Shown: piece after piece, positions 12,198-44,243 of the stretch
How positions within the stretch are numbered: the first letter of the stretch is position 1
Layout: the number at the start of each line of letters is the position of its first letter
Assembly: GCA_033763315.1 (NCBI GenBank)
Contig: JANRKS010000001.1
Coordinates: forward strand, 247,587-311,586
Source of the DNA: Deltaproteobacteria bacterium
GTDB taxonomy: Bacteria; Myxococcota_A; Polyangia; Fen-1088
Direction of reading: 5' to 3'
Length of the DNA: 64,000 nucleotides
The notes under the pieces: model-generated
The model's input: the letters and a program-made list of their open reading frames with translations, nothing else
The model's database searches: none
Told to the model about the DNA's origin: nothing
Translations under genes and position numbers: made by a program

Positions 12198-12824
12198 ATG
12201 AAAAAATGCGTTTATGTGCTGTGGCTATTGGCGGCTTGCGGTTCAGATGGTGCGCCCGCTGCCGACGATAACGATGCAGGCTCGGGTGGCGCCGCGGCCG
12301 CGGGCGGAAGCGCCGGGGCTTCGGCGGGTGGCGGGGGATCTGCTTTGGCTGGCGTGGACGGCGGCCTTGATGCCTCCGCCGGCGGGGTGGGCATAGACGC
12401 TGGTGGCATAGACGCTGGCGCTTTAGCCGGGTCAGGCGAAGCTCAACTGCCACCTACGAACCGGAAGGCGCTGGAGGCCTGGATCGAAAAGGGCTTTTAT
12501 AAAGCTTGGAAATGCGAAAGCAGCGTCATGAAGGCCAGGCCCAACGGCGCGCATGGACGCAACCGCGTGTGCTCAAACGCGCTTGCCAGCGCGAACGCTG
12601 GTGGTCCCTATGCCGTTGGTGCGGCTTCGATCAAGGAGATCTATTCAGGCGACAAGATCTCCGTTTACGCTGCCAGCGTGAAGGTGAAAGAAGGAACCGC
12701 TGCAAACACCTGGTACTGGTACGAAGGCAGCATTGAAGGCATAGGCATCTCAGCGTGTGCTGGCTGCCACGCGCAAAGCGCACAGTATGGCGGCCACGAC
12801 TATGTTTACATCCAAGTGAAGTGA
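12198..12824 (+). CDS. Cytochrome P460-like monoheme lipoprotein
   Basis: Lipobox LAAC, Gly/Ala linker, G..SIKE..., VK...W.W, C-terminal CAGCH followed by DYVY, the layout of the P460/c'-beta family. Confidence 0.65.
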   Translation: MKKCVYVLWLLAACGSDGAPAADDNDAGSGGAAAAGGSAGASAGGGGSALAGVDGGLDASAGGVGIDAGGIDAGALAGSGEAQLPPTNRKALEAWIEKGFYKAWKCESSVMKARPNGAHGRNRVCSNALASANAGGPYAVGAASIKEIYSGDKISVYAASVKVKEGTAANTWYWYEGSIEGIGISACAGCHAQSAQYGGHDYVYIQVK

Positions 12825-12827
12825 GCT

Positions 12828-14006: not shown

Positions 14007-14220
14007 TACAAGAACTCCTGCCGTGGGGTCGCTGGGGGTATGCAGTAACGGTCTTGGTGATGGCCAGCCGTATGACTTAAGGAAAGGCGCGCACCATACC
14101 GTTTTTCATGGGGCGCGCAAAGCGCCGCGCGTGCCGGAACCTGGCTAAACGTAAAGGGCAAATCCTCCCAGACGAATTGTCTCGGCCAAACGCCAAAGAT
14201 ATATACAATCAGCGCCCCAA

Positions 14221-16050: not shown

Positions 16051-16066
16051 CAGCCTGCCGATTCGA

Positions 16067-27077: not shown

Positions 27078-27112
27078 CTATCTGTCGATGGTAGCACCCC
27101 GTGGACGCTTCC

Positions 27113-29944
27113 ATGAGATCCAACGCCGCCGAGACGCGGCCGCAATACAAGATCTTGGGACGCTTCCATTGCCAAGAGGCATTGGAGAGCGTTCCGCCGT
27201 TTGTGACCTACCGGGCCCGCACGCAGGGGCTGGCTGGGTTCGAGCGCGTTTTTGCGGTGAAGGTGTTGCCGGCCGATGCGCCTGTCACCCGCATTGATGC
27301 TGGGCAACGCTTGCTTGAGGCCGCGGCGCGCGCCACCGCGGCCAAGGACGTGCGCCTCGGCCAGGTCGTGGATTCAGGCACGGCGCCCGACGGTTCAATC
27401 TATGTCGCCACGGAATTCGTTTTCGGCCTGAACCTGGCCTCTTTGCGCACGGGACTGCTGGTGGATTCGACCGGTGAGCGAACGGCGATGACGATGCTGT
27501 TGGCGCATCTGGCAGCGGAAATTGCCGGGGCGTTGGCCGCCGCGCACGAGATGAAGCCGCCGTTGGTGCACGGCGCCTTGGGGCCCAACAACATCTTTTT
27601 GACCGTACGGGGCGCGGTGAAAGTCATCGACTTTGGGCAACGGATGGCGGTGGCGCCTGGTCGTTTGGCAGGAGCCAAGCGGCAGCTATCGGCTTATGCG
27701 GCGCCTGAATTGTTGTTGGCTGGCGACGGATCGGCGGAAGCCGACGTGTTTGCCTTGGGATCGATGTTGTTCGAGATAGCCACCGGCAAAACGCCTCCTT
27801 CGGCGCGCAACCCACGCAGCGCATCCGACTTGGCGCGGTCGCTGAGTGTGTTGCCGCCCGATCTGGCCGAAGTGTTGACGTCGCTGCTGCGGGCGGATCC
27901 CGCCAAGCGGCCGACCGCGCGCGCGGCGGAAGTGGCACTTCGTCAGTCGGCCACGGGCTTGTCGGAACCTGAGCTTCGCGCGCACCTTGCAGGGCTGGCA
28001 CGCAGGTTGACCTCACCGGCGGCGGCGCCTGCCACTTCGGCTGAAAGCATGGTGGTGCCAATGCCTATGCCGGTGCAGAGCAATCCCACCGCCGTCGCTG
28101 CGCCCGCCACAGCGTCGCGCGAGGATCTGCGCAAAACACGCCCGGCGCGGTTGCCCAGCGAAGCGGATCCCGTGCGCCACACAGCACCCACGGCACGGCC
28201 GCCGGAGCCGATGATGCCGGCCGAGCTTGAGGCTCGTGGTGCGGTGGCGCCCGAGCCGATGAACACGCTGCCGTTCGCGGCCCTGATCGAAAGCGGTTTG
28301 GCGGGCGCCGTTCCCGGGCAAAGCAGCCAAGCGGGTCAAACGGCCGAAGTGGCACCGAGTTTGGCCGATGTGGCCTTGACGGCCGAGGGCGCCGCGGCCG
28401 ATGGCGGCGTGCAGGCGGCGGTGGTGGGCGAGGGCTCAAGCATGCTCGAGCTGTCGCTTGACGACCTTGAGGCGGTGCCTGCGCCGGAAGCAGAAGGGCT
28501 GGCGCCGGTGGCGGCCCAAGCGGTGCGCGAGACCTCGGGGCCTACGGCGCCTCTGCGACCGCCCAAAGTTCCGCCGTCACCTGTGGCCGGCATGGCTGCC
28601 GCCAGCGTCAAGCCGAACATGGAGAACATCACGACGGGCGAGATGAACGCGATGTTCGCGCCAGGAGTTATGGGCGACGTGTTCGACCCGGGTGCCACAA
28701 CCGAGGCCCCCGGTCTTTCGGAGGCGAGCGATGACGACTTTGAGGATGCCGAGACGGGCGCGTTTCGGCGCGGCATGTTTGCCAAGCTGATGGGCAACGA
28801 CGCCGAGACGCCCGTGCGCCCACCGCCGCCGATGGAGTTGGTGTTTCCACAAGACGCGGACGATCCCGCGAACGCTTCAACGCCTTGGAACCTTGAGGCC
28901 GAAGCGCCAAGCGGCTTTCACAGCGCGGCTGTGGAAGGCACAAATGAAGTGGGCGACGAGCAGCTTGTCATTTCAGGCGTGCATGCGGCCGCGCCACCGC
29001 CTCATCTTGAGGGCCCCAGCGCCACGCCGGCCTACGAAGAGCCGGCCGAAGAGGACGCCGGGGGGGCAGATTCCGACGAAGGCCCAGACGCTGATGAGCC
29101 TGAAGCCGGGGCGTACGTGCACCAGGCCTTGTCGGACGACAGCGACTTGGACGTTGCGCCGAAGGGCAGCGGCAAGCGACGTCTGGCCATCACGCTGGCC
29201 ACAGCCGCGGTTGTGGCTTCGCTGGGCGGCCTGGTGGGCGGTTACTTCGTGGGCCGCAAACCCGCGGGCGTGCGACAGCGGCCGGCTTTGCCCGAAGGTT
29301 TGGCCTCTGCGCCGATCGCGGCGCCGAGCCCGGCCGAAGAGCCAACCCCGGTAAGGGCAGCAGAGGCGGAAGCCGAGCCTACCCCGCAAGCCAAGCCAAC
29401 CCCGGTGAGGGCGGAAGCCGAGCCGCAGGCGGAAGCCAAGCCAACCCCGGTGACGGCGGGGTCAACCCCGGTGGGAGTGGGGCAAGGGGGGCCAGCGCCG
29501 CGGGATGTGCAAGGTCGGTTGCATGTGACGTTCAAGACGCAGCCCGTGGGAGCTGTGTTGTGGATCAACGGCGGGGAGCGCGGTTTGACTCCCGTGCGCA
29601 CCGAACTCAAAGAGCGACACAAGACGTTGGTTCTGATCAAAGCTGGGTTCCGGCACATTGTTGAAGAGTTGGATCACAGCACGTTGATGGCGGAACGTGT
29701 CTATGAGCTGCAGCCGGTGGCGGCGCCGCAAGGGTCCGCGGCCGTGCGCGTGGAGTGCGAGCAAGAGGGCAAGTATCCGATCCTCATTGACGGTGACGAC
29801 ACGGGTCTGTTGTGCCCTGCGCTGGTGCGTGCCAGCGCGGGTGAACACATCGTGTCGATCTATGTGCCGTGGCGTTTTAAAGCGTACGAAAACAAGCTGA
29901 CGTTGAGCGCAGGCAGAACGAAGATCACCAAGTTCGCAAAGTAA
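27113..29944 (+). CDS. Membrane-anchored Ser/Thr pseudokinase with long acidic/Pro-rich linker and C-terminal PEGA-like domains
   Basis: GFERVFAVK, DFG, YAAPE, ADVFALG present; HRD replaced by HGA; no Gly-loop. One TM segment (RRLAITLATAAVVASLGGLVGGYFV); T.P.GA..WING..RG.TP. Confidence 0.8.
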   Translation: MRSNAAETRPQYKILGRFHCQEALESVPPFVTYRARTQGLAGFERVFAVKVLPADAPVTRIDAGQRLLEAAARATAAKDVRLGQVVDSGTAPDGSIYVATEFVFGLNLASLRTGLLVDSTGERTAMTMLLAHLAAEIAGALAAAHEMKPPLVHGALGPNNIFLTVRGAVKVIDFGQRMAVAPGRLAGAKRQLSAYAAPELLLAGDGSAEADVFALGSMLFEIATGKTPPSARNPRSASDLARSLSVLPPDLAEVLTSLLRADPAKRPTARAAEVALRQSATGLSEPELRAHLAGLARRLTSPAAAPATSAESMVVPMPMPVQSNPTAVAAPATASREDLRKTRPARLPSEADPVRHTAPTARPPEPMMPAELEARGAVAPEPMNTLPFAALIESGLAGAVPGQSSQAGQTAEVAPSLADVALTAEGAAADGGVQAAVVGEGSSMLELSLDDLEAVPAPEAEGLAPVAAQAVRETSGPTAPLRPPKVPPSPVAGMAAASVKPNMENITTGEMNAMFAPGVMGDVFDPGATTEAPGLSEASDDDFEDAETGAFRRGMFAKLMGNDAETPVRPPPPMELVFPQDADDPANASTPWNLEAEAPSGFHSAAVEGTNEVGDEQLVISGVHAAAPPPHLEGPSATPAYEEPAEEDAGGADSDEGPDADEPEAGAYVHQALSDDSDLDVAPKGSGKRRLAITLATAAVVASLGGLVGGYFVGRKPAGVRQRPALPEGLASAPIAAPSPAEEPTPVRAAEAEAEPTPQAKPTPVRAEAEPQAEAKPTPVTAGSTPVGVGQGGPAPRDVQGRLHVTFKTQPVGAVLWINGGERGLTPVRTELKERHKTLVLIKAGFRHIVEELDHSTLMAERVYELQPVAAPQGSAAVRVECEQEGKYPILIDGDDTGLLCPALVRASAGEHIVSIYVPWRFKAYENKLTLSAGRTKITKFAK

Positions 29945-29947
29945 CTT

Positions 29948-32900
29948 TTGCCGCGGCGGGCTCAAGGCGCCTCAAGCTTTGGTGGCGTTCTTGCGATCTA
30001 TGGGCGGTGCTCTTTTACCGTTGAGCTGGCCAAACGCACGTCGCAAACGCTTTTGGTATGGGCGTTCGCTGTGTGTGTCATTGCAAGCGTGTTTGGTGGC
30101 TGCGATGTCGCGCCTGCAGGCAACCAAACCACCGTTGTGTCGCAAGCTTTAACGTGCGTGGCGCCCGCGGTTGAAGTGGCGTGCGTGAACGATTCTGATT
30201 GCAACCGGCCCTGCGCCACGGGGCTGTGCTCGAAGGCCACGGGCACGTGCCAATTTTGTTTATTGGATGCGAGCACGCAGTGCCGCGCGGCTGATCCAAC
30301 TAAGGCGTGCGACGCCGCTGATTTTTGTAACCCCGCGGGTGCCACGCCATGGTTGTGCCCCGGTGATGCACCGAAAGCCGCCGGCAGCGTGTGCCGGCCG
30401 ACGGCGGGATCGTGTGACCTTGCCGAGACGTGCGACGGCACATCATTCGCGTGCCCGGCAGATAAGTTCAGCAGCGCGGCCACCACGTGTCGTGCCGCTG
30501 TGGCCGGCGGTTGTGACGTGGCCGAATCCTGCACAGGCACCTCGGCGGCGTGTCCGGCGGACGCGGTGAAGAGCGCGGGCACTGTGTGTCGCGCCTCCGC
30601 TGGCGCGTGCGACGTTGCCGCTGAGACATGCGATGGCACAAGCAACACGTGCCCCGCAGATGTTTTCAAACCATCGGGCACTGTGTGCCGTCCTTTGAAC
30701 GGCGCGTGCGACGCGGTGGCGGAAACCTGCAATGGCAGCACGGGTGTGTGCCCTGCCGATTCGTTCTTGCCTGCAGGCACCGTGTGCCGCGCCGACAATG
30801 GCGGTGGCTGCGACGTGGCTGAAACGTGCACGGGCAGTTCAACGTCGTGCCCCAGCGACGGTGGCAAGGCCAATGGCACCGTGTGCCGGGCCAAAGCCGA
30901 TCTGTGCGATCAAGCTGAAACCTGCAACGGCACTTCCCAGGTTTGCCCGGCCGACAAACTTGCGGCCGCGGGCACCACGTGTCGTGCGGCCGGCGCGGGT
31001 GGCTGTGACGCGGCGGAGGTGTGCACAGGTGCCAGCATCAGTTGTCCCGCTGATGCCTTCGCCGCCGCGGGCACCATCTGTCGCGCGGCCGCGGCGGGTG
31101 GCTGTGACGTGGCTGAAGCTTGCACGGGTGCAACCGGCACGTGCCCGGCCGACGTCGTACAACCAGCAGGCACCGTGTGCCGTGCGCTCAATGGTGCGTG
31201 TGACGTGGCTGCCGAAACCTGCACGGGCAGCAGCAACGCGTGCCCCGCCGATAGCTTTCGACCAAGTTCATTCGTGTGTCGCCCTGACAACGGCATGGGC
31301 TGCGACGTGGCTGAGAGATGCCCAGGCAACAGCAACGCGTGCCCCGCGGACGCGGGCAAAGCGACGGGCACCGTGTGCCGCGCGAAGGCGGATTTGTGCG
31401 ACGCCGCGGAAACGTGCAATGGCACACCCGCGGCCTGCCCCGCGGACGTGATCGCATCGGCGGGCACCGTGTGCCGCGCCGCTGTGGCGGGCGGGTGCGA
31501 CGTGGCTGAAACGTGTTCAGGCAGCGGCATCGCGTGCCCTGCGGATGTGGTGCGACCCGCAGGCACCGTGTGCCGTGCGCTCAATGGCGCGTGTGACGTG
31601 GCTGCCGAAACCTGCACAGGCAGCAGCAACGCCTGCCCGGCCAATACGTTTGCGCCCAACACAACGGTGTGCCGACCCGACAACGGTGGCGGGTGTGACG
31701 TGGCGGAGATGTGTCCCGGCAACGCCGCCGCATGCCCCTCCGACAAAGGCAAAGGTTCAGGCGTTGTGTGCCGCGCCGCCAGCGATCTGTGCGATGTGGC
31801 TGAGACCTGTGGTGCCACTTCCGCTGCATGCCCCACCGACAAGCTGGCCACGGCGGGCACAACATGTCGCGCGGCTGCACCCAATAGCTGCGACGCCCCT
31901 GAGGTGTGCTCTGGCATGACGGCCGCGTGCCCTGCGGACGTGTTGAAACCAGCGGGCAGCGTGTGTCGCGCGCTCAACGGCGCCTGCGACGTGGTGGCTG
32001 AGACGTGTGATGGAGCCACGAGCACGTGCCCGGCCGATACATTCAAACCCGCAGGCACAGTGTGCCGCGCCGACAATGGTGGTGGTTGCGACGTGCCCGA
32101 AGCTTGCACAGGCAGCAGCAACGCGTGTCCCGCTGACGCAGGCAAGGCCACAGGCACTGTGTGTCGCGCCGCGATCGATACATGCGATGTGGCTGAAGCG
32201 TGTGCAGGCACCTCTGCGGCGTGTGGCACCGATAAGTTTGTGTCCGCGGGCACCACATGCCGAACGGCGGCGGGCGCCTGTGACGCGCCCGAGGTGTGCA
32301 CAGGAATGACGGGCTCGTGCCCCGGCGACATCGTGAAAACATCAGGCACTGTGTGCCGTGCGGCCGCCGCGGGTGGTTGCGATCTCGCGGAGACGTGCAA
32401 CGGCACAGCCATCACGTGCCCCGTCGATGGCTTTCAACCGGCGTCTACCGTGTGCCGAGCCACCGCGGGCGCGTGCGACGTCGAGGAAAACTGCACGGGC
32501 TCGGCGGCGGCGTGCCCCGCGGATGCGTTTGCCGCGGCGGGCGTGACGTGTCGTGCGGCCACCGGCGTGTGCGATGCATCCGAAGCGTGCCCTGGCAACG
32601 CGGCCGCGTGCCCCGCCGACGCCAGTGCGCCCAACAACACGTTGTGTGACGACGGCAACGTATGCAACGGCATCAGCAAATGCCTAAGCGGCGCTTGCAA
32701 GCCCGGCACACCGCCCGTTTGCGACACGGGCAACCCCTGTGTCACCGACAGCTGCGATCCCGGCACCGGATGCAAAAGCGCTCAGCTGCCCAACGGCACG
32801 GCGTGTTCCGATGGGCGCTATTGCACGATCAACGACGTGTGCACCAACGGCACCTGTGGCGGCAACGCACGCGATTGCGGCACGCCGGCCCAAAGCTGCC

Positions 32901-35629
32901 TGCTGGCCGCTTGTGACGACGCCACCTCAAGCTGCAAGTTGCAAGCGAACCCTTCGGGCCCCGCCTGCAAAGACGACTCAATCAAGCCGTACATGATGGT
33001 GATCGTGGATACCTCAGGCTCGATGGACGCCAGCACGGGCGTGGGCAAAAACTCGTGTGGGCGCACCAAGAGCCGTCTTTCCGACGCCAAATGCGTGCTC
33101 ACCGACATCGTGAATTCATACGGCGATGTGGTGTTCGGCCTTGAACGCTTCAAGGAGAACACAAGCGGCACACCCATGTCGGGTGCCAATGGCTGCGGGG
33201 CGCATGATTGCCAATCGTCATGTCCCGAAAGTTGCAATGCCTGCACCGTGAACACGTTGTTGTGCAACACCTGTGATCCCACAGCGGCCACGCCCGCCGC
33301 AGGCAATTGTCCGGCGTTGGGTGGCGACGCTTCACAAGGTGAGATCTTGGCGCCCATCGTGGATCACCAGCACGATCAGCTGCTGAAGTGGGTGAACTAC
33401 ACCGTCAATGGTTGTGAATCCACGGCCACGGATCCCGAGCTATCGGCCGATACGTGGACGCCCATTGGCGGCGCTCTGCGCGGGGCACGCCGGTATTTTC
33501 AAGGCGGCGATTCAGTGTTTGCCCAAAGCCCCATCGATCCCACGAACGCTTGCCGGCCGTATTACGTGATCTTGCTGACCGACGGTGACGAATCGTGCAC
33601 CACGTTTACCGAAACGTTAGCGGCCACCGATGAACTGCGCGCCACGGCCTATGGTGGACGCACGTACGACATCAAAACGTACACGATCGGCATCGGCATC
33701 ACGCCCGCAAGCCCGTCAGGCACGCGGCTGCAAACCATCGCGAGCCATGGCGGAACCACCGCGTATTACGCAAGTGATGAGCAGTCGCTGGCCCTGGCGT
33801 TCGCGAAGATCTTGAAGGACTCGCTGCTTGTGGAAGTGTGTGACGGCAAAGACAACAACTGCAACGGCCTGGTGGACGAGGGCTTCACGCTTTACTGCGA
33901 CAAGAAGACCAATCACCCCACGGCCGATCTGTGCGCGAACCCAGGCGATCCTTGTGACGGCGTGGACGACAATTGTTTTGGTGGCGTGACGGATGAAGTG
34001 CACAACGCGTGCGGCACGTGTGGCGCGGCGCCCACTGAAGTGTGCAATAGCCTGGACGACAATTGCGACGGACGCGTTGACGAAGGGTTGAACTGCACGT
34101 GCATCGTGCAGCCTGAGATCTGCGACAACGTCGACAACGATTGCGACGGCGAGACCGACGAAACCCTGACGCGCGCCTGCGGCTCAAACGTTGGCGCGTG
34201 CACGCCTGGCGTTGAGACGTGCCAGGCAGGCGTGTGGCAAGGCTGCACCGCCAATAATGGCATGCCAGAGTTGTGCAACGGCATCGACGATGATTGCGAT
34301 GGCGTGACCGACGGCATCGCGCAGGCGTGTGGCCACCCGGCCGTGGGCACGTGCCAACCGGGAACTCAGGTGTGCAAAGGCGGCGCGTGGAACGCGTGTG
34401 CGGGCAACGTGGAGCCCGTTGCCGAATTGTGTGACGGCCTCGACAACGATTGTGACGGCGAAACCGATGAGGGCAACCCCGGCGGTGGCGCCGCGTGCGA
34501 CACCTTGTGTGGCGCGGGTGCAGTGACGTGTGTGCAAGGCAAGCTCAGCTGCGTGAGCGCCGCCGGCAGCGGCAAGCCCGAACTGTGCAATGGCGAAGAC
34601 GACAACTGCAACGGGCTCGTAGACGAGGGCCTGGATATGTTGGGCTCGTGTGACAACAACGGCCTGCTGTGCGTGCCTGGCCAATCCAAGTGCCTTGCGG
34701 GCAAAGTGCAATGCGTAGGCGGTGCGCCTCCCGAAGTTGAAGTGTGCGATTGCAAAGACAACAACTGCGATGGCCAAGTGGACAACGGCAACCTGTGCGG
34801 TGCGGGCGCCACGTGTTTGGGTGCGGGTTACTGCCAGTGCGCGTTTCCATGCGCCGGCGGTGAATTCCCGTGCCCCGCGGGATACCGCTGCGCCGATGCC
34901 AGCGCCACGGCGCCCGGCTTTTGTGTTCAGGATCCGTGCGCGCAGGTGCGTTGCCCGCGTTTGCCCAATGGCACCACGCAGACGTGCGTGGACGGTGCGT
35001 GTGTGCCCCTGTGCAACATCATCACGTGCAACGCGGGATCGGTGTGCCGTGCGAATGATGGCCAATGCGTTGCCAACAACTGTCTGGGTTTGCCCGAGTT
35101 GTGCGGCCCCACGCAATTGTGCGCGGGTGGCACATGTGTTGAGAATTTGTGCAAAGACGTCACCTGCCCCGCGGGACAATTCTGCCGTCAAGGCGCGTGT
35201 GTGGGCAGTTGCAGCGGCGTCGTTTGCGCAGGCAAAACCAGTTGTCGAGACGGCACCTGCCAAAGCGATCTCTGCGCAGGTGTCGGGTGTCCCGCCAACG
35301 CTGTTTGTGATTCCGGCACAGGGCAGTGTGTGGCTGACGCGTGCTTGTTGGTGGTGTGCGGGCAAGGGCGTGTGTGCAACAACCTGTCAGGCCAATGCGA
35401 GGCGGATCCATGTACGGGCATCACGTGCCCTGCTGGACAGTTCTGCGCCAAAGGCAACTGCTTCTCCCCGCCAAACCCGGACGGCGACACGCCACGGCAG
35501 TACGTGGGCGTGCGCGGCACAGGCGTGCTGGGATGTGCCTACGCAAGCAAGGGACATGACCACAGCGGTCTGTGGCTGTGGCTCGCCATGGCGCTCGCCG
35601 CGGGCCGCGTGATCAGGAGGAAGCGATGA
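29948..35629 (+). CDS. Giant Cys-rich surface protein: 24 disintegrin-like repeats, VWA, 8 MopE-like repeats, EGF/FOLN-like repeats, MYXO-CTERM-like anchor (start uncertain)
   Basis: Repeats CR-x5/6-CD(V/L/A)xExCxGxxxxCPxD; MIDAS DTSGS, TPIG, LLTDG; E.C.G.D..C.G..DE repeats; C-terminus GCAY...LWLWLAMALAAGRVIRRKR. Confidence 0.85.
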   Translation: MPRRAQGASSFGGVLAIYGRCSFTVELAKRTSQTLLVWAFAVCVIASVFGGCDVAPAGNQTTVVSQALTCVAPAVEVACVNDSDCNRPCATGLCSKATGTCQFCLLDASTQCRAADPTKACDAADFCNPAGATPWLCPGDAPKAAGSVCRPTAGSCDLAETCDGTSFACPADKFSSAATTCRAAVAGGCDVAESCTGTSAACPADAVKSAGTVCRASAGACDVAAETCDGTSNTCPADVFKPSGTVCRPLNGACDAVAETCNGSTGVCPADSFLPAGTVCRADNGGGCDVAETCTGSSTSCPSDGGKANGTVCRAKADLCDQAETCNGTSQVCPADKLAAAGTTCRAAGAGGCDAAEVCTGASISCPADAFAAAGTICRAAAAGGCDVAEACTGATGTCPADVVQPAGTVCRALNGACDVAAETCTGSSNACPADSFRPSSFVCRPDNGMGCDVAERCPGNSNACPADAGKATGTVCRAKADLCDAAETCNGTPAACPADVIASAGTVCRAAVAGGCDVAETCSGSGIACPADVVRPAGTVCRALNGACDVAAETCTGSSNACPANTFAPNTTVCRPDNGGGCDVAEMCPGNAAACPSDKGKGSGVVCRAASDLCDVAETCGATSAACPTDKLATAGTTCRAAAPNSCDAPEVCSGMTAACPADVLKPAGSVCRALNGACDVVAETCDGATSTCPADTFKPAGTVCRADNGGGCDVPEACTGSSNACPADAGKATGTVCRAAIDTCDVAEACAGTSAACGTDKFVSAGTTCRTAAGACDAPEVCTGMTGSCPGDIVKTSGTVCRAAAAGGCDLAETCNGTAITCPVDGFQPASTVCRATAGACDVEENCTGSAAACPADAFAAAGVTCRAATGVCDASEACPGNAAACPADASAPNNTLCDDGNVCNGISKCLSGACKPGTPPVCDTGNPCVTDSCDPGTGCKSAQLPNGTACSDGRYCTINDVCTNGTCGGNARDCGTPAQSCLLAACDDATSSCKLQANPSGPACKDDSIKPYMMVIVDTSGSMDASTGVGKNSCGRTKSRLSDAKCVLTDIVNSYGDVVFGLERFKENTSGTPMSGANGCGAHDCQSSCPESCNACTVNTLLCNTCDPTAATPAAGNCPALGGDASQGEILAPIVDHQHDQLLKWVNYTVNGCESTATDPELSADTWTPIGGALRGARRYFQGGDSVFAQSPIDPTNACRPYYVILLTDGDESCTTFTETLAATDELRATAYGGRTYDIKTYTIGIGITPASPSGTRLQTIASHGGTTAYYASDEQSLALAFAKILKDSLLVEVCDGKDNNCNGLVDEGFTLYCDKKTNHPTADLCANPGDPCDGVDDNCFGGVTDEVHNACGTCGAAPTEVCNSLDDNCDGRVDEGLNCTCIVQPEICDNVDNDCDGETDETLTRACGSNVGACTPGVETCQAGVWQGCTANNGMPELCNGIDDDCDGVTDGIAQACGHPAVGTCQPGTQVCKGGAWNACAGNVEPVAELCDGLDNDCDGETDEGNPGGGAACDTLCGAGAVTCVQGKLSCVSAAGSGKPELCNGEDDNCNGLVDEGLDMLGSCDNNGLLCVPGQSKCLAGKVQCVGGAPPEVEVCDCKDNNCDGQVDNGNLCGAGATCLGAGYCQCAFPCAGGEFPCPAGYRCADASATAPGFCVQDPCAQVRCPRLPNGTTQTCVDGACVPLCNIITCNAGSVCRANDGQCVANNCLGLPELCGPTQLCAGGTCVENLCKDVTCPAGQFCRQGACVGSCSGVVCAGKTSCRDGTCQSDLCAGVGCPANAVCDSGTGQCVADACLLVVCGQGRVCNNLSGQCEADPCTGITCPAGQFCAKGNCFSPPNPDGDTPRQYVGVRGTGVLGCAYASKGHDHSGLWLWLAMALAAGRVIRRKR
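30281..32644 (+). repeat. Coding tandem array of 24 units of about 99 bp (disintegrin-like)
   Basis: Units counted in the translation, 4 Cys each, with near-identical nucleotide blocks (e.g. GCAGGCACCGTGTGCCGTGCGCTCAATGG). Confidence 0.9.
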
Positions 35630-37551
35630 ACGCTTTGCGCGCCTGGGCCATGTTGGGTTTGGCCACGCTTGCTTTGCTTGCCTTGCCTGCGTGCCAACAG
35701 CGTCTGTTCTGCGTAAACTGCGGCGACGCCGGCGTTGGTTGGTTCGATGCGGCCGTGCCACCTCCCGGCGACGACGGCGGCGTTGATCCGGGCGGCGATG
35801 CTGGGGTGATTTGTGTGCCGGCCGCGGAAACATGCAACGGCAAAGACGACAACTGCAACGGTCTGATCGATGACGGCGTGCTTGTGGACGTGGGCGTGGT
35901 TTGCGGATCCGTGCTCGGCGTATGTAAGCAAGGCGTAACGGCGTGCGAACAAGGGCGATTGGTGTGCCAAGGCGAAACGCCGCGCGCCCCAGAAACGTGC
36001 AATGGTTTGGATGATGATTGTGATGGCGTGGTTGACAACGGCAACCCCGGCGCAGGCGTGCTGTGTGGCAACGGAACCGGCGAATGCGTGCAGGGCCTCA
36101 CGATGTGCCAAGCGGGCATGATCGTGTGCGAAGGTGGCACCGGCCCCACGCCTGAGGTGTGTGACGGCTTTGACAACAACTGCGATGGCACGATCGACGA
36201 AGGCGATCCCGGCGGAGGCGCCCAATGCGGGGCAGGCGCTGACGTGTGCGTGCCCGGCAAGATCCGCTGCACGGGCGGCCAACTTGTGTGCGTGGGCGCA
36301 GGGCCTGCCATCGCCGAGCTGTGTAATGGTGTTGACGACAACTGCAACGGCCAAGTGGATGAAGGTTTCAACACAGCGATCGATCCCAACAACTGCGGTG
36401 TGTGCGGCAAGGTTTGTGGGTTGCCGTTTGCGCGCGCCGCGTGCGGCGCGGGCGCGTGCCAGATCGAACGCTGCACAACGGATCACTGGGATCTGGATCG
36501 TGATCCAAACAATGGCTGTGAATACGCGTGTGCGCTGCGTGGCGTGGAATTGTGCAACGGCTACGATGACGACTGCGATGGCGTGATCGACAACGGCGTG
36601 ACCGCGCCCGACAACTGCGCCAAACTTGGCGAATGCGCCGGCACGAAGCCCTCATGTGATGGCAAGAGCGGTTGGGTTTGCCGTTATGGCGGGCTCGTGA
36701 GCACGAATGGCTCGGGGCAGATCGTTCCGGAAACCAACTGCGACGATCGCGACAACGACTGCAACGGCCGCACCGATGATTTGTTCCCCAACCGCCAAAA
36801 GGGCTGCACCGCCGGTACCGGGGCGTGCGTGGCCCAAGGCAAACAGGTGTGCAACGCCACCCACGACGCCTTGATCTGCGACGCCCCCACACCCGCGCCG
36901 GGCAGCGCCGAGATCTGCAATGGCATCGATGATGATTGCAACGGCCAAACGGATGAAGGCGCACCAGACGCGTGGGTCACGTTCCGCGTGGGGGGCGCGA
37001 CAAAGCAGATCTATAAGTACGAAGCGTCGCACCCGGATGCCACGGCGACCAGCATCGGTGCGTTGGTGCACCGCTCGTGTTCGCAAGCGTTGCGTCTGCC
37101 GTGGATCAACGTGACCTATCCAGAAGCGCAAGCGGCCTGCGCCCAGGCTGGCGCGCGCTTGTGCACCGAAACGGAATGGCAAGCGGCGTGTGAAGCCGAG
37201 GCCCCGCAGGCGTGTGCGTGGTCGTTTGCGAACAGCTGCATGACTTATCAACCCGGCGTATGTGCCGACGCCAACTACGATCTGGACCCGGCGTTGCCCG
37301 GCTACCAGAATGGCTTGGTGGCCACCGGATCGCTCGCAAGCTGCAACACAAGCTGGGGCGCGGCCGGCGGCATCTATGATCTTTCCGGCAATGTGAAAGA
37401 ATGGACCGCCGCGCGCGCGCCCGGCATCAACCCCTTGCGTGGCGGCGCATACAACAACCCCGTGGGGGGCGCCACGTGTGGCAGCAAGTTCGTGGTGGCG
37501 GACGATACGTTCTTGTTCGGCGATGTCGGATTCCGCTGCTGCAAGGATTAA
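35626..37551 (+). CDS. Lipoprotein with 7 MopE-like repeats and C-terminal FGE-sulfatase (C-type lectin fold) domain
   Basis: Lipobox LPAC; E.CNG.DD.C.G..D repeats; DPNNCG.CG..C; YEAS, PW.NVT..EA..AC...G.RLC.E.EW..AC, DLSGNVKEW, RGG, GFRCC. ATGA overlap with the upstream gene. Confidence 0.88.
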   Translation: MNALRAWAMLGLATLALLALPACQQRLFCVNCGDAGVGWFDAAVPPPGDDGGVDPGGDAGVICVPAAETCNGKDDNCNGLIDDGVLVDVGVVCGSVLGVCKQGVTACEQGRLVCQGETPRAPETCNGLDDDCDGVVDNGNPGAGVLCGNGTGECVQGLTMCQAGMIVCEGGTGPTPEVCDGFDNNCDGTIDEGDPGGGAQCGAGADVCVPGKIRCTGGQLVCVGAGPAIAELCNGVDDNCNGQVDEGFNTAIDPNNCGVCGKVCGLPFARAACGAGACQIERCTTDHWDLDRDPNNGCEYACALRGVELCNGYDDDCDGVIDNGVTAPDNCAKLGECAGTKPSCDGKSGWVCRYGGLVSTNGSGQIVPETNCDDRDNDCNGRTDDLFPNRQKGCTAGTGACVAQGKQVCNATHDALICDAPTPAPGSAEICNGIDDDCNGQTDEGAPDAWVTFRVGGATKQIYKYEASHPDATATSIGALVHRSCSQALRLPWINVTYPEAQAACAQAGARLCTETEWQAACEAEAPQACAWSFANSCMTYQPGVCADANYDLDPALPGYQNGLVATGSLASCNTSWGAAGGIYDLSGNVKEWTAARAPGINPLRGGAYNNPVGGATCGSKFVVADDTFLFGDVGFRCCKD

Positions 37552-37564
37552 GGCAGCACGGCGG

Positions 37565-38911
37565 CTAGGCTTCTGGATCGCGCAACCCGTGCTTCCTTAG
37601 TAGCTCACGCAAATGTTTGCGATCCAGCTCGGCGGCGCGTGACGCCGCCGATAAGTTGCCTTTGTGGGCCTCGAGCAGATGCGCCAAGTACTCTCGCTCG
37701 AACGCCTCCACCATCACGGCCTTGGCTTCTTTGAACGGCAGATCAAATGGCACGTGTGCGGGCGTGGGCGTGCTGGAAGGCGATCCATCACCAAACGTCT
37801 TTGTGAAATCGAGTTCGTCGTCGCGCGACAGCGCAACCACGCGTTCAATCAAGTTGCGCAGCTCGCGCACATTGCCGGGCCACGGGTATTGTTTGAGCTG
37901 CTCAAGATCGTGGGTCCGCGCGCGCAGCGAACGGCCCCGCGACAACTCTTTAATGAAGTGCTGCGCCAGCAGCGGCACGTCTTCGAGCCGGTCGCGCAAC
38001 GGCGGAATGGTGATGCGTACGACCGCCAGGCGATAATACAAATCCTCTCGAAAGCGCTTCTCGGCCACTTCTGCCCGCAGATCGCGGTTCGTGGCCGCCA
38101 CCACACGCACGTTCACCTTGCGATAGGCGTCCCCGCCCACGGGGCGCACCATTTGTTTGTCGAGCACACGCAGCAACGTTGGCTGCAGATCCAGATGAAG
38201 CTCGCCGATCTCGTCTAAGAATAAGGTGCCGCCGTCAGCTTCACCAAAGGCGCCGCGGCGTTCGCTGATGGCGCCCGTGAACGCACCCTTGACGTGGCCA
38301 AACAACGCCGACTCGATCAATTCGTGCGGCACCGCCGCACAATCGAACACCACCAAAGATTGTTTGTTGCGGTGGCTGTGCCTGTGAATTTCTTCGGCGA
38401 AGCGCTCTTTGCCCGAACCGGTTTCGCCTTCGAGCAACACCGTGGCGTCGGTTTGCGCCACATCTTCGAGCAGCGAAAACAGCCGCCGCATTTTTGGGTC
38501 GCGGCCAAACAACGATCCAAAGCGTTCTTTGTCACCGGGCGCCACATCAACGGCTTGTTCGTCCGGCACGTACTTGATGATGGTTTGGCCAACTTGAATT
38601 TCAGTGCCGTAACCCAGCTCCAGTTCGCGGAAGCGCGCGCCCTTGAGGAACGAGCCGTTGGTCGAGCCGAGGTCGCGCAGCAGCAAACCGCCTTCGCCCA
38701 ATCGGATCTCCATGTGCCGCCGCGACACTGTGGGATCAGTGAGTTGGATTTGGCACTCGCTGCCTGAGCCTAACGTCAGCGGGCTTTTGTCGAGCGCGAA
38801 CGATTCGCCCCGGTCTTGCCCATGCAGCACGATGAACCGCCCGCGCCCCGACTGCCGCACGATTGAGGCTTCGGGGTTGATGATCCGGGTGGGCGATTTC
38901 GGAATGGTCAT
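37565..38911 (-). CDS. sigma54-dependent enhancer-binding protein with N-terminal FHA domain and Fis-type HTH
   Basis: [13 protein letters not shown]; GETGSGKE; [15 protein letters not shown]; FLDEIGE; WPGNVREL; C-terminal HTH. Confidence 0.95.
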
Positions 38912-40011
38912 TCGCGCGGGGAGGGCGCCGACGGAAGCCGGTTGCGGATCGTGTCGCCCATGGCATCGATTCCATCAATGGGCGTGGCCTCTTTGCCCAA
39001 CTGCGCGTGCATCGCCGGCGCGGCGCCCAAATCCAACCGCTGGGTGTCTCCTGTGACCGCTTCGTCGTGCGCCCATCTTTCAGGATCAGGGCCAAGCAAA
39101 GAGGTCAGTTCGTTGGACAAATCTTTGGTGGAATACACCAAGCCATAACGTTGCGTCACATCGCGCAGCTGCTGCGAGAACTCAAGCGCCGAGCCATAAC
39201 GTTGTTCGGGATCGGGTGCCAACGCACGCGCAAACACCATATCCACCTCCGGCGGAATGTCGGGCGTGAGCTGGGACAAGCTTGGCAGCGGGCGGCCATA
39301 AACCTCATCAGGCGGCGTTTGCAGATCGCCCACGAACAGCCGCGAGCCCAAGAACGTTTCGAACACACACACAGCCACGGAGAACAGATCGCTGCGGGCG
39401 TCTATGACTTCGCTGCGTGCCTGTTCGGGCGACATATAGCCCACCTTGCCGCGCACCTTGTAGAACACCGACGCAAACGCTGTGGCTTTGGCGATGCCGA
39501 AGTCCGAAAGCTTCACTTCGCCACGTGTGGAACACAAAATATTCGAGGGCGAGACGTCGCGGTGGATGATGCCCAGCGATTGCCCCCCTGAATCCGTTTT
39601 GCCGTGCATATACGCAAGGCCCGCCAAGACCTCTTGCGCCACGAACAGAACCGCGGCTGTGGACAGCGGCCGGCGTTTGCGGCGCGCGCGCCAGCTTATG
39701 GTGCGCAGATCCGTGCCAGGCACGTACTCCATCACGATGAACAGCGTATCGTCCGAGCGCACGAGATCGTAGGTGCGCACGATGTTCACGTGATCAAGCG
39801 ACGCGGAGATGCGTGCTTCCCGGAAAAACAGATCGCGGAATTCGGGGCGCGTTGTGAATTCAGGCAGCAACTGCTTGAGCACCACGGGGCGCTCGAAGCC
39901 CACGGCCCCCAGCTTCTTGCCCAAGTAGATTGCACCCATGCCGCCTTCCGTCAGGTAACGCTCGATACGGTATCGACGCATCGCTGGTTGTGGCGTGGGC
40001 GTAGGCAACAT
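38908..40011 (-). CDS. Cytoplasmic Ser/Thr protein kinase
   Basis: GGMG, VVLK, HRDVSPSN, DFG, YMSPEQ; no TM segment; overlaps the FHA-EBP start. Confidence 0.93.
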   Translation of the reverse strand: MLPTPTPQPAMRRYRIERYLTEGGMGAIYLGKKLGAVGFERPVVLKQLLPEFTTRPEFRDLFFREARISASLDHVNIVRTYDLVRSDDTLFIVMEYVPGTDLRTISWRARRKRRPLSTAAVLFVAQEVLAGLAYMHGKTDSGGQSLGIIHRDVSPSNILCSTRGEVKLSDFGIAKATAFASVFYKVRGKVGYMSPEQARSEVIDARSDLFSVAVCVFETFLGSRLFVGDLQTPPDEVYGRPLPSLSQLTPDIPPEVDMVFARALAPDPEQRYGSALEFSQQLRDVTQRYGLVYSTKDLSNELTSLLGPDPERWAHDEAVTGDTQRLDLGAAPAMHAQLGKEATPIDGIDAMGDTIRNRLPSAPSPRE

Positions 40012-40088
40012 ACGTACCCGCCAGCCTAGGGGCTGGCTTTGCAAGAAGCAAACAGAACTGACAGCGCGGTCGCGTGACCGCACCGGGG

Positions 40089-44227: not shown

Positions 44228-44243
44228 GATGGCTCCTCGGGCG

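What the first reader, a model, noticed from the sequence alone, without database searches (positions are those of the whole stretch)
29948..37551. Two-gene surface module: 24x disintegrin-like stalk + VWA + MYXO-CTERM protein coupled to a MopE-repeat/FGE-lectin-fold lipoprotein
Seen: the 1893-aa ORF has 24 tandem CRxxxxxCDxxExCxGxxxxCPxD units, a MIDAS-intact VWA domain with a Cys-rich insertion, 8 acidic MopE-like repeats, about 8 EGF/FOLN-like repeats and a MYXO-CTERM-like tail. The next gene overlaps it (ATGA), shares the MopE-like repeats and ends in an FGE-fold domain. Established: this Cys pattern matches the C-terminal half of ADAM/snake-venom disintegrin-like domains; integrin I-domains are VWA/MIDAS folds; FGE/CLec folds act as ligand-binding heads; MYXO-CTERM anchors surface proteins such as TraA. 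Inference: a co-expressed receptor/adhesin pair joining a disintegrin-like array and an integrin-like VWA in one chain, possibly for cell-cell, kin or prey recognition. I know of no characterised system with this architecture.
Basis: partly seen in the sequence, partly recalled or inferred. Interest (0 to 1): 0.8.

Follow-up and report, generated by a model that had tools for sequence, protein, structure and literature searches.

The report
Disintegrin-repeat VWA adhesin with lipoprotein partner
A myxobacterium carries a tightly coupled gene pair for a very large cysteine-rich surface protein (24 half-disintegrin repeats plus an integrin-like VWA domain) and a lipoprotein partner; it belongs to a large, unstudied family of probable surface adhesins.

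Summary
ORF 29948-35629 encodes 1893 aa with 23 regular and 1 degenerate disintegrin-like unit (Pfam Disintegrin, 254 bits). It also has a VWA domain with an intact MIDAS (confirmed by fold), 8 MopE motifs, about 8 four-Cys repeats and a sub-threshold MYXO-CTERM-like tail. Gene 2 starts at ATG 35626 (ATGA overlap) and is a lipoprotein with 7 MopE motifs and an FGE-fold domain that lacks the CxxxxC catalytic pair.

The pair is not unique. VWA/MopE/MYXO-CTERM protein plus MopE/FGE lipoprotein is a large family in Polyangia, with 3 copies in this genome. The genes are adjacent, overlap by 4 nt, or are fused in frame with both sorting signals kept. The disintegrin array is an optional N-terminal add-on; relatives have no extension or a DUF11-type one. 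Disintegrin-type units occur in 151 of 401 genomes of the class.

Here the 7.6-kb pair sits between convergent genes that abut in 4 of 4 relatives. Metagenome contigs from a run that holds a 93-96% identical relative bridge both junctions.

Best reading: a two-part, metal-dependent surface adhesin. Kin recognition and strain-level hypervariability find no support. Verdict: a new variant of known myxobacterial integrin-like adhesins.

The parts
29948..35629 (+). Gene 1: 1893-aa Cys-rich protein (216 Cys, 11.4%). The start codon is uncertain: TTG 29948 lies 3 nt after the stop of the upstream kinase gene, and a CTG at codon 27 would give a textbook lipoprotein signal.
30026..30103 (+). Signal peptide with lipobox-like end (..ASVFGGC). 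The three other full-length array-bearing homologues also end their hydrophobic region in [GAS]C. Six array-less relatives have AxA-type sites instead.
   Evidence: read; no signal-peptide predictor was available
30104..30391 (+). N-terminal Cys-rich cap and one degenerate disintegrin-like unit (residues 112-140)
   Evidence: cap conserved in P0016 and L032
30392..32620 (+). 23 tandem disintegrin-like units (CRx5-6CDxxExCxGxxxxCPxD, period 32-33 aa) with a four-unit super-repeat
32621..32977 (+). Cys-rich linker between array and VWA (sub-threshold Dicty_CTDC, 22.4 vs 27 bits), conserved in array-bearing homologues (49-58% identity)
32978..33835 (+). VWA domain with MIDAS D1021-x-S1023-x-S1025...T1171...D1212
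33152..33337 (+). Cys-rich insertion within the VWA domain, between strand 2 and the next strand; partly low model confidence
33836..34792 (+). 8 acidic MopE-type motifs (CxGxDNDCDG) interleaved with Cys-rich hairpin modules
34793..35482 (+). About 8 four-Cys repeats forming the membrane-proximal stalk. No library model hit was returned when residues 1600-1850 were scanned alone. In the C-terminal 74 residues (1820-1893), TIGR04201 scores 11 vs 25 bits on the last unit.
35513..35626 (+). MYXO-CTERM-like tail: Cys1863, hydrophobic helix, RRKR terminus
35615..35629 (+). Coupling site: AGGAGG, then ATG of gene 2 overlapping TGA of gene 1 (ATGA)
   Evidence: the same 4-nt overlap occurs in L033, L035, L087 and L092
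35626..37551 (+). Gene 2: 641-aa lipoprotein (signal MNALRAWAMLGLATLALLALPAC, Cys23)
35833..36981 (+). 7 MopE-type motifs with Cys-rich hairpins in gene 2
36982..37548 (+). FGE-fold (SUMF/pFGE-like) C-terminal domain with 9 invariant Cys and DLSGNxxEW, RGG and GFRCC motifs. No CxxxxC pair follows RGG.
27101..29944 (+). Left flank: Ser/Thr kinase with PEGA domain. This adjacency is specific to this lineage and is not part of the conserved module.
37565..38911 (-). Right flank: FHA/sigma-54 activator, convergent. In relatives it abuts the kinase gene (22-25 bp apart in the two same-genus genomes).

Best explanation
The two genes encode the two parts of a metal-dependent cell-surface adhesin of a Polyangia (probably Sandaracinaceae) myxobacterium.

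Gene 1 is exported. It becomes tethered by its C-terminal MYXO-CTERM-like signal, which is cleaved and lipid-anchored by the genome's myxosortase; surface display by type II secretion is inferred by analogy. From the membrane outwards it presents a four-Cys-repeat and MopE (probably Ca2+-binding) stalk, then a MIDAS-bearing VWA head.

In this lineage a further ~800-aa rod of 24 disulfide-locked half-disintegrin units follows. It ends in an N-terminal Cys that may be a second lipid anchor. If so, the VWA head would sit at the apex of a loop.

Gene 2 is translated in step with gene 1 through the ATGA overlap. It is a lipoprotein with the same MopE modules and a non-catalytic FGE-fold head, and probably stays associated 1:1 with gene 1, possibly docking on the VWA domain.

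Shown here: domain content, VWA fold, MIDAS, conserved coupling and fusion, presence of the myxosortase, and the insertion at this locus. Inferred: surface location, lipidation, Ca2+ binding, the physical complex, and adhesion as the function.
For: Domains:
- Disintegrin 254 bits, MopE 42.8 and 108.4 bits, FGE-sulfatase 43 bits.
- VWA model pLDDT 86.2, pTM 0.87. Foldseek top hits are pilus-tip and other adhesin VWA domains, Bacteroides BatB and integrin I domains: PitA 7w6b E 9e-9, BatB 3ibs, CD11b 8ce6, SpaC 6m48. 346 hits reach E<=1e-3 among the best 500 counted.
- Four of the five MIDAS columns (D, first S, T, last D) are invariant in 39 sequences and the fifth (S1025) is at least 90% conserved.

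Sorting:
- The tail has Cys, a hydrophobic helix and RRKR. Homologues carry classic GGGGCxC...RRRR tails.
- Myxosortase core NF040914 scores 135.8 bits against a cut-off of 100 in the same genome.
- 6 other frames in the genome exceed the MYXO-CTERM cut-off.

Coupling:
- An FGE gene is adjacent or fused in 16 of 24 assessable VWA-anchored loci.
- Of 11 FGE-anchored loci, 2 are cut by contig ends, 8 of 8 with upstream DNA in a separate ORF have a VWA/MYXO-CTERM gene directly upstream, and 1 (L091) is fused.
- 4-nt overlaps occur in L033, L035, L087 and L092.
- Six fused ORFs read (P0012, P0013, P0063, L042, L050, L091) all keep the internal MYXO-CTERM and the lipoprotein signal.
- 40 of the 120 listed homologues carry both MopE and FGE Pfam domains.

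Complex prediction, VWA + FGE head: weak support. Score 0.41 (median of three runs) with best control 0.00. The mark was reached by 116 of 157 solved complexes and 2 of 215 mismatched pairs. At 0.60 or under it was reached by only 18 of those 157, and by both mismatches that passed. The runs agree in at least 85% of contacts and partner pLDDT is at least 80. My own alignments were used, so these counts hold only roughly.

Analogy: the M. xanthus surface lipoproteins CglB and CglD combine a VWA/MIDAS domain with Cys-rich structure. CglD also has Ca2+-binding repeats and EGF-like repeats. Both act as adhesins (passages read in PMC9946355, and bioRxiv 10.1101/2023.10.19.562135).
Against: - No experiment or expression data exist.
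- The tail is below the MYXO-CTERM cut-off (14 vs 20 bits).
- The VWA Pfam scores are below threshold.
- The repeat model is of low confidence (pLDDT 63.9), so rod shape and disulfide pattern are not shown.
- The complex score is in the weak band, where passes are more often wrong than right unless the guess was likely beforehand.
- 8 of 24 assessable VWA loci have no FGE neighbour.
- In 3 loci the FGE gene lies upstream of the VWA gene rather than downstream.
- No ligand is known.
- The N-terminal lipobox was read by eye only.
Confidence: 0.55

Rival explanations
1. Polymorphic cell-cell (kin or prey) recognition receptor in the manner of TraA/TraB. A variable distal head on a Cys-rich stalk with a MYXO-CTERM anchor would mediate homotypic or selective recognition, with gene 2 as the co-receptor.
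For: The layout parallels TraA: head, Cys-rich repeats, MYXO-CTERM, and a two-gene operon (layout recalled; TraA paper PMC6372800 seen only as a search listing and abstract start). The N-terminal region differs radically between homologues: none, a disintegrin array, a DUF11/NEW3 domain block, or other. Repeat number varies between the window and homologues: 24 here, 17 to 31-33 by my counts (regular expression and my own unit HMM) in P0016, P0023 and L032. The pair is present in this lineage and absent at the same locus in 4 of 4 relatives.
Against: No PA14 domain is present, and TIGR04201 scores only 11 vs 25 bits. The VWA and MopE parts are the most conserved (76% and 75% vs 39% for the array). 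A 93-96% identical relative in run X1 differs by 4.4% over 31724-35094 against 6-7% in the pieces covering the flanks, so there is no strain-level hypervariability there. The partner is not OmpA-like.
Confidence: 0.1
2. Enzyme and substrate. The FGE-like lipoprotein would be an active Cys-modifying oxidase (formylglycine or a related modification) that matures the Cys-rich gene 1 product in the periplasm.
For: FGE-sulfatase Pfam hit above cut-off. Gene 1 has 216 Cys. Tight co-translation would suit a dedicated maturase.
Against: The best solved relative by sequence is SUMF2/pFGE (1y4j, E 2e-5), not FGE itself (E 0.17); that pFGE is the inactive paralogue is my recall. The alignment of 28 domains shows one invariant Cys after RGG and no CxxxxC pair (the catalytic motif of FGE is recalled, not checked against a sequence). 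No CxPxR or Cx[PA]xR substrate motif occurs in either protein. Only profile positions 85-191 of 255 are matched.
Confidence: 0.07
3. Envelope-internal structural pair. The two proteins would be part of a periplasmic or outer-membrane machine (for example a PorK/GldK-like ring lipoprotein with a partner) or a matrix scaffold, rather than an outward-facing adhesin.
For: PorK/GldK are FGE-fold lipoproteins; the domain gives a faint GldK match (E 0.0046). Two possible lipid anchors on gene 1 could hold it within the envelope (read).
Against: The GldK score is 16.3 against a cut-off of 350. No secretion or motility genes flank any of the loci inspected, and the neighbours are not conserved. MYXO-CTERM proteins studied so far are surface-displayed (passage in bioRxiv 10.1101/2023.06.07.544157).
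Confidence: 0.1

Closest known systems
CglD (and CglB) of Myxococcus xanthus: integrin-like VWA surface lipoprotein adhesins of the gliding machinery
   Same: Myxobacterial and Cys-rich with disulfide-stabilised structure. A VWA domain carries the DxSxS...T...D MIDAS. CglD also has acidic Ca2+-binding repeats and EGF-like Cys-rich stalk repeats. Both are lipid-anchored at the surface (passages read).
   Different: Domain order and anchor differ. CglD has an N-terminal lipid anchor, Ca2+ repeats at the N-terminus and VWA at the C-terminus. Here there is a C-terminal MYXO-CTERM-like anchor, MopE rather than COMP-type repeats, a 24-unit disintegrin-like array and an obligate FGE-fold lipoprotein partner. 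There is no link to Glt genes. The NCBIfam CglB model scores only 15.3 vs 200. Homology to CglD was not tested.
ADAM / P-III snake-venom metalloproteinase disintegrin-like domain (Pfam PF00200)
   Same: Each unit matches the loop-bearing C-terminal half, CRx..CDxxExCxGxSxxCPxD. Foldseek's best matches to the low-confidence repeat model are these domains: 2e3x, 2erq, ADAM22 (5y2z, 3g5c) and ecarin (9clp), at 33-39% identity, E 0.05-0.4 and none at E<=1e-3. A full Reprolysin + Disintegrin + MYXO-CTERM protein exists in the same bacterial class (L019).
   Different: Only half of the domain is present, iterated 24 times head to tail. There is no metalloprotease and no RGD/KGD/ECD-type tripeptide. 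The cysteines of the N-terminal half, which pair with this half in animal domains, are missing, so the disulfide pattern must differ (inference).
TraA/TraB outer-membrane-exchange receptor of myxobacteria
   Same: Head, then Cys-rich repeat stalk, then MYXO-CTERM-type anchor, encoded in a two-gene operon with a partner protein.
   Different: No PA14 head. The stalk repeats are below the TIGR04201 cut-off (11 vs 25). The partner is a MopE/FGE lipoprotein, not an OmpA-type protein. There is no strain-level hypervariability in the part examined.
Gram-positive pilus-tip VWA adhesins (PitA, SpaC, PilB)
   Same: Closest solved folds to the VWA model (7w6b E 9e-9, 6m48, 7ba2). They are MIDAS-dependent adhesion heads at the end of a stalk.
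   Different: Sequence identity is 12-15%. They are sortase-assembled pilus subunits, not lipid-anchored single chains, and they have no FGE partner.
pFGE/SUMF2 and other non-catalytic FGE-fold (C-type-lectin-like) domains
   Same: Best solved sequence relative of the gene 2 head (1y4j, E 2e-5). It shares the DxxGNxxEW and RGG motifs.
   Different: The domain here is shorter (about 190 aa), carries 9 invariant Cys and a GFRCC end, and is fused to MopE repeats and a lipid anchor.

Membership tests
Pfam Disintegrin (PF00200) | Score above the gathering cut-off | tested here: met
   254 bits vs 35.1, 23 stretches. 0 of 14 control genomes hit.
Pfam Disintegrin (PF00200) | Whole ~75-residue domain present | tested here: not met
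   All stretches cover profile positions ~44-75 only. Full-length matches exist elsewhere in the class, for example L019 at positions 3-75.
Functional disintegrin (integrin antagonist) | RGD/KGD/MVD/MLD/VGD/WGD or ECD tripeptide at the loop tip | tested here: not met
   None of these motifs occurs in either protein.
Disintegrin fold | Structural similarity of a unit to solved disintegrin(-like) domains | tested here: inconclusive
   Model pLDDT 63.9, pTM 0.35. Top Foldseek hits are ADAM/SVMP disintegrin-like domains, but with E 0.05-0.4 and none at E<=1e-3.
VWA domain | Pfam gathering score | tested here: not met
   PF00092 21.6 vs 23.8; PF13519 19.4 vs 27. The match is split by the insertion.
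VWA domain | Rossmann-like VWA fold | tested here: met
   pLDDT 86.2, pTM 0.87. 346 PDB matches at E<=1e-3 among the best 500 counted; all 47 rows listed are VWA-containing proteins.
VWA domain | MIDAS DxSxS...T...D | tested here: met
   D1021, S1023, S1025, T1171 and D1212 are present. D, the first S, T and the last D are invariant in 39 sequences; S1025 is at least 90% conserved.
MYXO-CTERM (TIGR03901) | Score above the curated cut-off | tested here: not met
   14 bits vs 20, E 0.05 on the last 74 residues.
MYXO-CTERM (TIGR03901) | Tripartite tail at the extreme C-terminus (invariant Cys, hydrophobic helix, basic cluster), with a cognate myxosortase in the genome | tested here: met
   ..GVLGC..LWLWLAMALAAG..RRKR*. 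NF040914 scores 135.8 vs 100. Homologues carry canonical tails.
Formylglycine-generating enzyme (FGE/SUMF1) | FGE-sulfatase domain (PF03781) above cut-off | tested here: met
   43 bits vs 23.3, but only profile positions 85-191 of 255 are matched.
Formylglycine-generating enzyme (FGE/SUMF1) | Catalytic Cys pair (CxxxxC after the RGG motif; motif recalled, not taken from a call) | tested here: not met
   One invariant Cys (C166) after RGG and no CxxxxC in 28 aligned domains. The best solved relative is SUMF2/pFGE.
Cu-binding_MopE repeat (PF11617) | Score above cut-off, repeated | tested here: met
   Gene 1: 42.8 bits (113.5 on residues 1297-1617). Gene 2: 108.4 bits. Cut-off 27. 8 and 7 core motifs respectively. 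Metal binding itself was not tested.
Bacterial lipoprotein (gene 2) | Signal peptide ending in a lipobox with Cys | tested here: met
   MNALRAWAMLGLATLALLALPAC read from the sequence. Comparable lipoboxes were found in the partners of 8 of 13 relatives scanned with my pattern. No predictor was run.
TraA | PA14-type variable head and TIGR04201 stalk repeats | tested here: not met
   No PA14 hit. TIGR04201 scores 11 vs 25.
T9SS PorK/GldK | TIGR03525 equivalog score | tested here: not met
   16.3 bits vs 350.
CglD-type beta-integrin-like adhesin | Sequence homology to CglD | not tested
The likeness is by domain content only.

The most novel reading that the evidence does not exclude
The family is a bacterial two-subunit, integrin-like surface receptor made from one coupled or fused precursor. 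The precursor would be split by two different lipid-anchoring pathways: Lsp at an internal lipobox, and myxosortase at an internal MYXO-CTERM. The FGE-fold head of one subunit would occupy the MIDAS of the other until a ligand displaces it. The half-disintegrin arrays would be a native bacterial module, related to the full Reprolysin-Disintegrin proteins of the same class. That would make Polyangia a place where the origin of the ADAM disintegrin domain, and its pairing with I-domain-like receptors, can be studied.
Probability: 0.15. Interest if true: 0.8.

Novelty: new variant of a known kind. Interest (0 to 1): 0.5.

Why it matters
Myxobacteria are the bacterial model for integrin-like adhesion (CglB, CglD) and for surface-receptor sorting by MYXO-CTERM. 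This locus exposes a much larger, unstudied family of VWA adhesins in the sister class Polyangia.

- The family always travels with an FGE-fold lipoprotein. It is sometimes made as one polypeptide that keeps an internal C-terminal-type sorting signal followed by a lipoprotein signal. That makes a testable case of a membrane-split polyprotein.
- Half-disintegrin units are a common building block of bacterial surface proteins: 151 of 401 genomes of the class. Complete reprolysin-disintegrin proteins also exist there. Both points bear on where the animal ADAM module came from.
- I found only a one-line Pfam listing of this in the literature searched.
- The practical value is a set of defined domains for structural and adhesion work in a culturable relative such as Sandaracinus amylolyticus, which has the array-less fused form.

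Tried and rejected
- Expression: no RNA holder was listed for the stretch, so nothing can be said about expression.
- Earlier notes of this scan: nothing by place, by the five-word query or by sequence.
- Kinase link: the upstream STK-PEGA gene is not found next to the paralogous pairs (C5, C19), nor in most related loci; only L047, L050 and L063 have some kinase nearby. It abuts the sigma-54 gene in relatives, so I dropped the idea of a three-gene unit.
- Foreign composition: GC3 of the pair (0.72-0.73) equals that of host genes (0.73-0.75) and of the paralogous pairs (0.69-0.75). There is no compositional sign of recent foreign origin. No mobile-element genes or flanking repeats were seen at the junctions by eye.
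- Recent duplication of the genome's own paralogues: rejected. They score 83-102 bits on my VWA profile against 506 for the window copy.
- Repeat structure: AlphaFold2 on four units with 42 in-register rows gave pLDDT 63.9 and pTM 0.35, with four of five models at or below 40. This is too weak to read disulfides or shape.
- Sequence search of the PDB with the VWA profile gave only E 0.02 to complement factor B. The fold search was needed.
- Literature: 'disintegrin' + 'Myxococcota' gave 0 papers. 'disintegrin' + 'myxobacteria' gave 5, of which only PMC8436480 is relevant, a Pfam list entry for Minicystis rosea; PMC2938197 concerns Monosiga. The MopE/FGE/VWA/MYXO-CTERM query gave no description of this pair. 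Searches were too loose to be informative. One search gave one unrelated preprint.
- Short VWA proteins of about 900 aa without an FGE neighbour (L045, L046, L047, L056, L059, L062) appear to be a separate subfamily and were not pursued.

Full report
**1. What is there**

The window holds two co-directional ORFs, 29948-35629 (1893 aa) and 35572-37551. The DNA shows that the second gene really starts at ATG 35626. That ATG overlaps the TGA of gene 1 (ATGA) and lies six bases after an AGGAGG. It gives MNALRAWAMLGLATLALLALPAC, a lipoprotein signal.

The start of gene 1 is less clear. TTG 29948 lies 3 nt after the stop of the upstream kinase gene. A CTG at codon 27 would give MAKRTSQTLLVWAFAVCVIASVFGGC (reading only).

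Pfam gives the following for gene 1:
- Disintegrin: 254 bits (cut-off 35.1), 23 stretches.
- MopE: 42.8 bits.

Pfam gives the following for gene 2:
- MopE: 108.4 bits.
- FGE-sulfatase: 43 bits (cut-off 23.3).

A pattern search finds 23 units with a 32-33 aa period at residues 149-891, and a 24th degenerate unit at 112-140. All Pfam stretches cover only profile positions ~44-75 of 75, the loop-bearing C-terminal half of the domain. The same model hits 0 of 14 control genomes.

Unit DNA is 49-86% identical, with a four-unit super-repeat (units 9 and 13 at 86%, 5 and 18 at 81%). The array is therefore old and not an assembly artefact. Gene 1 has 216 Cys in 1893 residues.

**2. VWA, tail and FGE head**

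*VWA.* The region is below Pfam thresholds because a Cys-rich insertion splits it (21.6 vs 23.8 and 19.4 vs 27). A PDB sequence search with a six-sequence profile gave only E 0.02. With a 39-row alignment built from related loci (A3), AlphaFold2 gave pLDDT 86.2 and pTM 0.87; only the insertion (model residues 69-98) fell below 50.

Foldseek found 346 PDB matches at E<=1e-3 among the best 500 counted, and every row listed is a VWA-containing protein. The matches include the pilus adhesin PitA (7w6b, 9e-9), BatB, the CD11b and alpha-X I domains, SpaC and complement factor B. MIDAS residues D1021, S1023, S1025, T1171 and D1212 are present. Four of these columns are invariant across the 39 sequences and the S1025 column is at least 90% conserved.

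*Tail.* The C-terminal tail scores 14 bits against a cut-off of 20 for TIGR03901. It still has Cys1863, a hydrophobic helix and a terminal RRKR. Homologues carry canonical GGGGCxC...RRRR tails. The genome encodes a myxosortase core domain (NF040914, 135.8 bits vs 100), and six other frames exceed the MYXO-CTERM cut-off.

*FGE head.* The gene 2 head is most like SUMF2/pFGE among solved proteins (1y4j, E 2e-5; FGE itself E 0.17). An alignment of 28 such heads shows nine invariant Cys and the DLSGNxxEW, RGG and GFRCC motifs. Only one Cys follows RGG, not the CxxxxC pair that I recall as catalytic in FGE. Neither protein contains a CxPxR-type FGE substrate motif, nor any RGD, KGD, MVD, MLD, VGD, WGD, ECD or LDV tripeptide.

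**3. The pair belongs to a large family**

This genome has three such pairs: the window, C5 (1137 + 923 aa frames) and C19 (1426 + 1167 aa frames). The other two lack the disintegrin array and start directly with signal peptide plus VWA.

A database search with residues 1000-1893 found 3547 proteins at E<=1e-3 among 8000 scored. Source names include 'MopE-related protein' and 'vWA domain-containing protein', from Sandaracinus amylolyticus and from Sandaracinaceae and Polyangiales MAGs. I infer the organism's placement from those names.

I counted adjacency in two sets of loci:
- *VWA-anchored loci.* Of 51 loci fetched with the VWA alignment, 32 score at least 75 bits on my VWA profile, and 8 of these are cut too close to the gene to judge. 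Of the 24 assessable, 16 have an FGE-head gene adjacent on the same strand: 11 downstream, 2 fused and 3 upstream. The other 8 have none, mostly a ~900-aa short subfamily.
- *FGE-anchored loci.* Of 11 loci fetched around the best gene 2 relatives, 2 are cut. 8 of 8 with upstream DNA in a separate ORF have a VWA...MYXO-CTERM gene directly upstream. One (L091) is a single 2233-aa ORF.

Start and stop codons overlap by 4 nt in L033, L035, L087 and L092, as in the window. They overlap by 1 nt in L074, and an 11-nt gap separates them in L039. For 5 of the 13 pairs my pattern found no start.

40 of the 120 listed homologues carry both MopE and FGE Pfam domains. I read three of them (P0012, P0013, P0063) and three fused loci (L042, L050, L091). 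All six keep an internal MYXO-CTERM (GGCxC, helix, RRRR) followed directly by a lipoprotein signal ending in Cys.

This is strong genomic evidence for a 1:1 functional unit. It suggests (inference) that the fused forms are split in the membrane by signal peptidase II and myxosortase.

**4. The array is an optional head**

Homologues with the same array + VWA + MopE architecture exist:
- P0006: 68% identity, N-terminally cut.
- P0011: 52%, partial.
- P0016: 51%, 1753 aa.
- P0023: 46%, 1957 aa.
- L032, from an uncultured Sandaracinus MAG: 31 units by my regular expression and 33 stretches by my unit HMM; cut by the contig end.

Other family members have no extension, or a ~900-aa block with DUF11/NEW3-type domains plus four acidic repeats. 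That block is seen in L090, L092 and L093, and L093 comes from a same-genus genome. L089 has yet another block.

The four full-length array-bearing proteins end their signal peptide in [GAS]C, whereas six array-less ones have AxA-type sites (read). The array may therefore be anchored at its N-terminus as well; this is a hypothesis only.

Identity to the closest homologue is highest in VWA (76%) and MopE (75%), and lowest in the array (39%) and tail (28%).

**5. Disintegrin units in the class**

PF00200 matches 151 of 401 genomes sampled from the class (132 over the cut-off; 77 of 162 genera). It matches 0 of 2 same-genus genomes. One of the 151 is the unpublished genome G366; without it the tally is 150 of 400. 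Most matches again cover positions 45-75.

A few are full length. L019 is an 821-aa lipoprotein with Reprolysin (89.4 bits), a complete Disintegrin domain (53.5 bits, positions 3-75), an HEMGHNLWMPHD zinc site and a MYXO-CTERM tail. It is a bacterial ADAM-like protein.

Notes from other windows of this scan report prokaryotic multi-repeat Disintegrin forms in CPR bacteria and disintegrin-like four-Cys units in DPANN archaea. These are unchecked AI notes.

The four-unit AlphaFold2 model was weak (pLDDT 63.9, pTM 0.35). Its best Foldseek matches are all ADAM/SVMP disintegrin-like domains, but at E 0.05-0.4 and none at E<=1e-3. The fold test is therefore inconclusive, and the call rests on sequence.

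**6. Locus history**

In both same-genus genomes the orthologue of the upstream kinase (55% identity) is followed after 22-25 bp by the convergent sigma-54/FHA activator (83-85% identity). The same order without the pair holds in two other genera of the family: L094 (gap at most about 300 bp by my estimate) and L095 (a few tens of bp). That makes 4 of 4 relatives with both flanks on one contig; three further contigs end too early.

The 7.6-kb pair is thus an insertion in this lineage, with only 3 and 13 nt of spacer. Its GC3 (0.72-0.73) matches host genes. It is not a recent copy of the genome's own paralogues.

Contigs of run X1 hold a 93-96% identical relative. They bridge the left junction (29385-30261), the gene 1/gene 2 junction and the right junction (35075-38500). 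Runs X2 and X3 hold near-identical short pieces. The arrangement is real. In X1 the stretch 31724-35094 differs by 148 of 3371 positions (4.4%), against 6-7% for the pieces covering the left flank and the gene-2-to-right-flank stretch. The VWA/MopE part is therefore not hypervariable between these strains.

**7. Mechanism**

The best-supported reading is a two-part, metal-dependent surface adhesin.

- A C-terminal lipid anchor would be made by the myxosortase pathway. Surface display by type II secretion is stated for M. xanthus MYXO-CTERM proteins in the preprint 10.1101/2023.06.07.544157 (passages read).
- From the membrane outwards would come a four-Cys and MopE stalk, a MIDAS VWA head, and here a distal or looped half-disintegrin rod.
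- The co-translated MopE/FGE-fold lipoprotein would be the partner.

The complex test of VWA against the FGE head gave weak support:
- Score 0.41 (median of three runs), best control 0.00.
- The mark was reached by 116 of 157 solved complexes and 2 of 215 mismatched pairs.
- At 0.60 or under, it was reached by only 18 of the 157 and by both mismatches that passed.
- The runs agree in at least 85% of contacts, and partner pLDDT is at least 80.
- My own alignments were used, so the counts hold only roughly.

The closest characterised analogues are the M. xanthus adhesins CglB and CglD. Both have VWA/MIDAS and Cys-rich structure, and CglD adds Ca2+ repeats and EGF-like repeats (passages read). 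Surface location, lipidation, Ca2+ binding, complex formation and the ligand remain untested.

**8. Novelty**

I found no description of this pair or of myxobacterial disintegrin arrays. Searches: 0 papers; 5 papers. The only relevant line is a Pfam listing for Minicystis rosea (PMC8436480, passage read). The library lacks most subscription journals.

I rate the finding a new variant of a known kind, namely myxobacterial integrin-like, lipid-anchored VWA adhesins.

Noticed in passing
L019 (G297:C42), locus 238-2700 +: 821-aa lipoprotein with a Reprolysin domain (89.4 bits, HEMGHNLWMPHD), a complete Disintegrin domain (53.5 bits, profile 3-75), acidic repeats and a MYXO-CTERM tail. This is a bacterial ADAM-like protein in the same class, and a possible source of the half-disintegrin unit.
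   Followed up: partly
window 29945-29947 and 37552-37564 (junctions): The whole two-gene pair is an insertion between convergent kinase and sigma-54 activator genes. Those genes lie 22-25 bp apart in both same-genus genomes and are also adjacent, without the pair, in two other genera of the family. No mobile-element gene or flanking repeat was seen.
   Followed up: yes
P0012, P0013, P0063; L042 4568-8218, L050 9455-13636, L091 7294-13992: Single ORFs that fuse both genes yet keep an internal MYXO-CTERM signal followed at once by a lipoprotein signal peptide. This suggests a precursor that is split in the membrane by two sorting pathways.
   Followed up: partly
L093 (G002, same genus) 10733-16237 -, L092, L090: Family members whose VWA domain is preceded by a ~900-aa block with DUF11 and NEW3-type domains and four CxDGxDNDxDGxxDFPxDPGC repeats instead of disintegrin units. 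The distal head is exchangeable.
   Followed up: partly
own genome C31:3919-5433 +: A second, unrelated probable lipoprotein (..LGAC) with two disintegrin-like units. It is the only other PF00200 hit in the genome.
   Followed up: partly
window 25237-26190 (-), 27101-29944 (+), 37565-38911 (-), 38908-40188 (-): The insertion site lies in a conserved cluster of Ser/Thr-kinase signalling genes: FHA-DUF4388, STK with PEGA domain, FHA-sigma-54 activator and a second STK. The order is kept in four relatives.
   Followed up: partly
window 29948-30103: Gene 1 has no ATG or GTG start upstream of its signal peptide. The options are TTG 3 nt after the kinase stop codon, or a CTG that would give an ideal lipoprotein signal.
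   Followed up: no
window 42839-46001 (-): Adjacent DUF1552 (HXXSHH) and DUF1592/1588/1585/1595/1587 genes, a pair typical of planctomycete-type secreted or periplasmic proteins. Unrelated to the finding.
   Followed up: no
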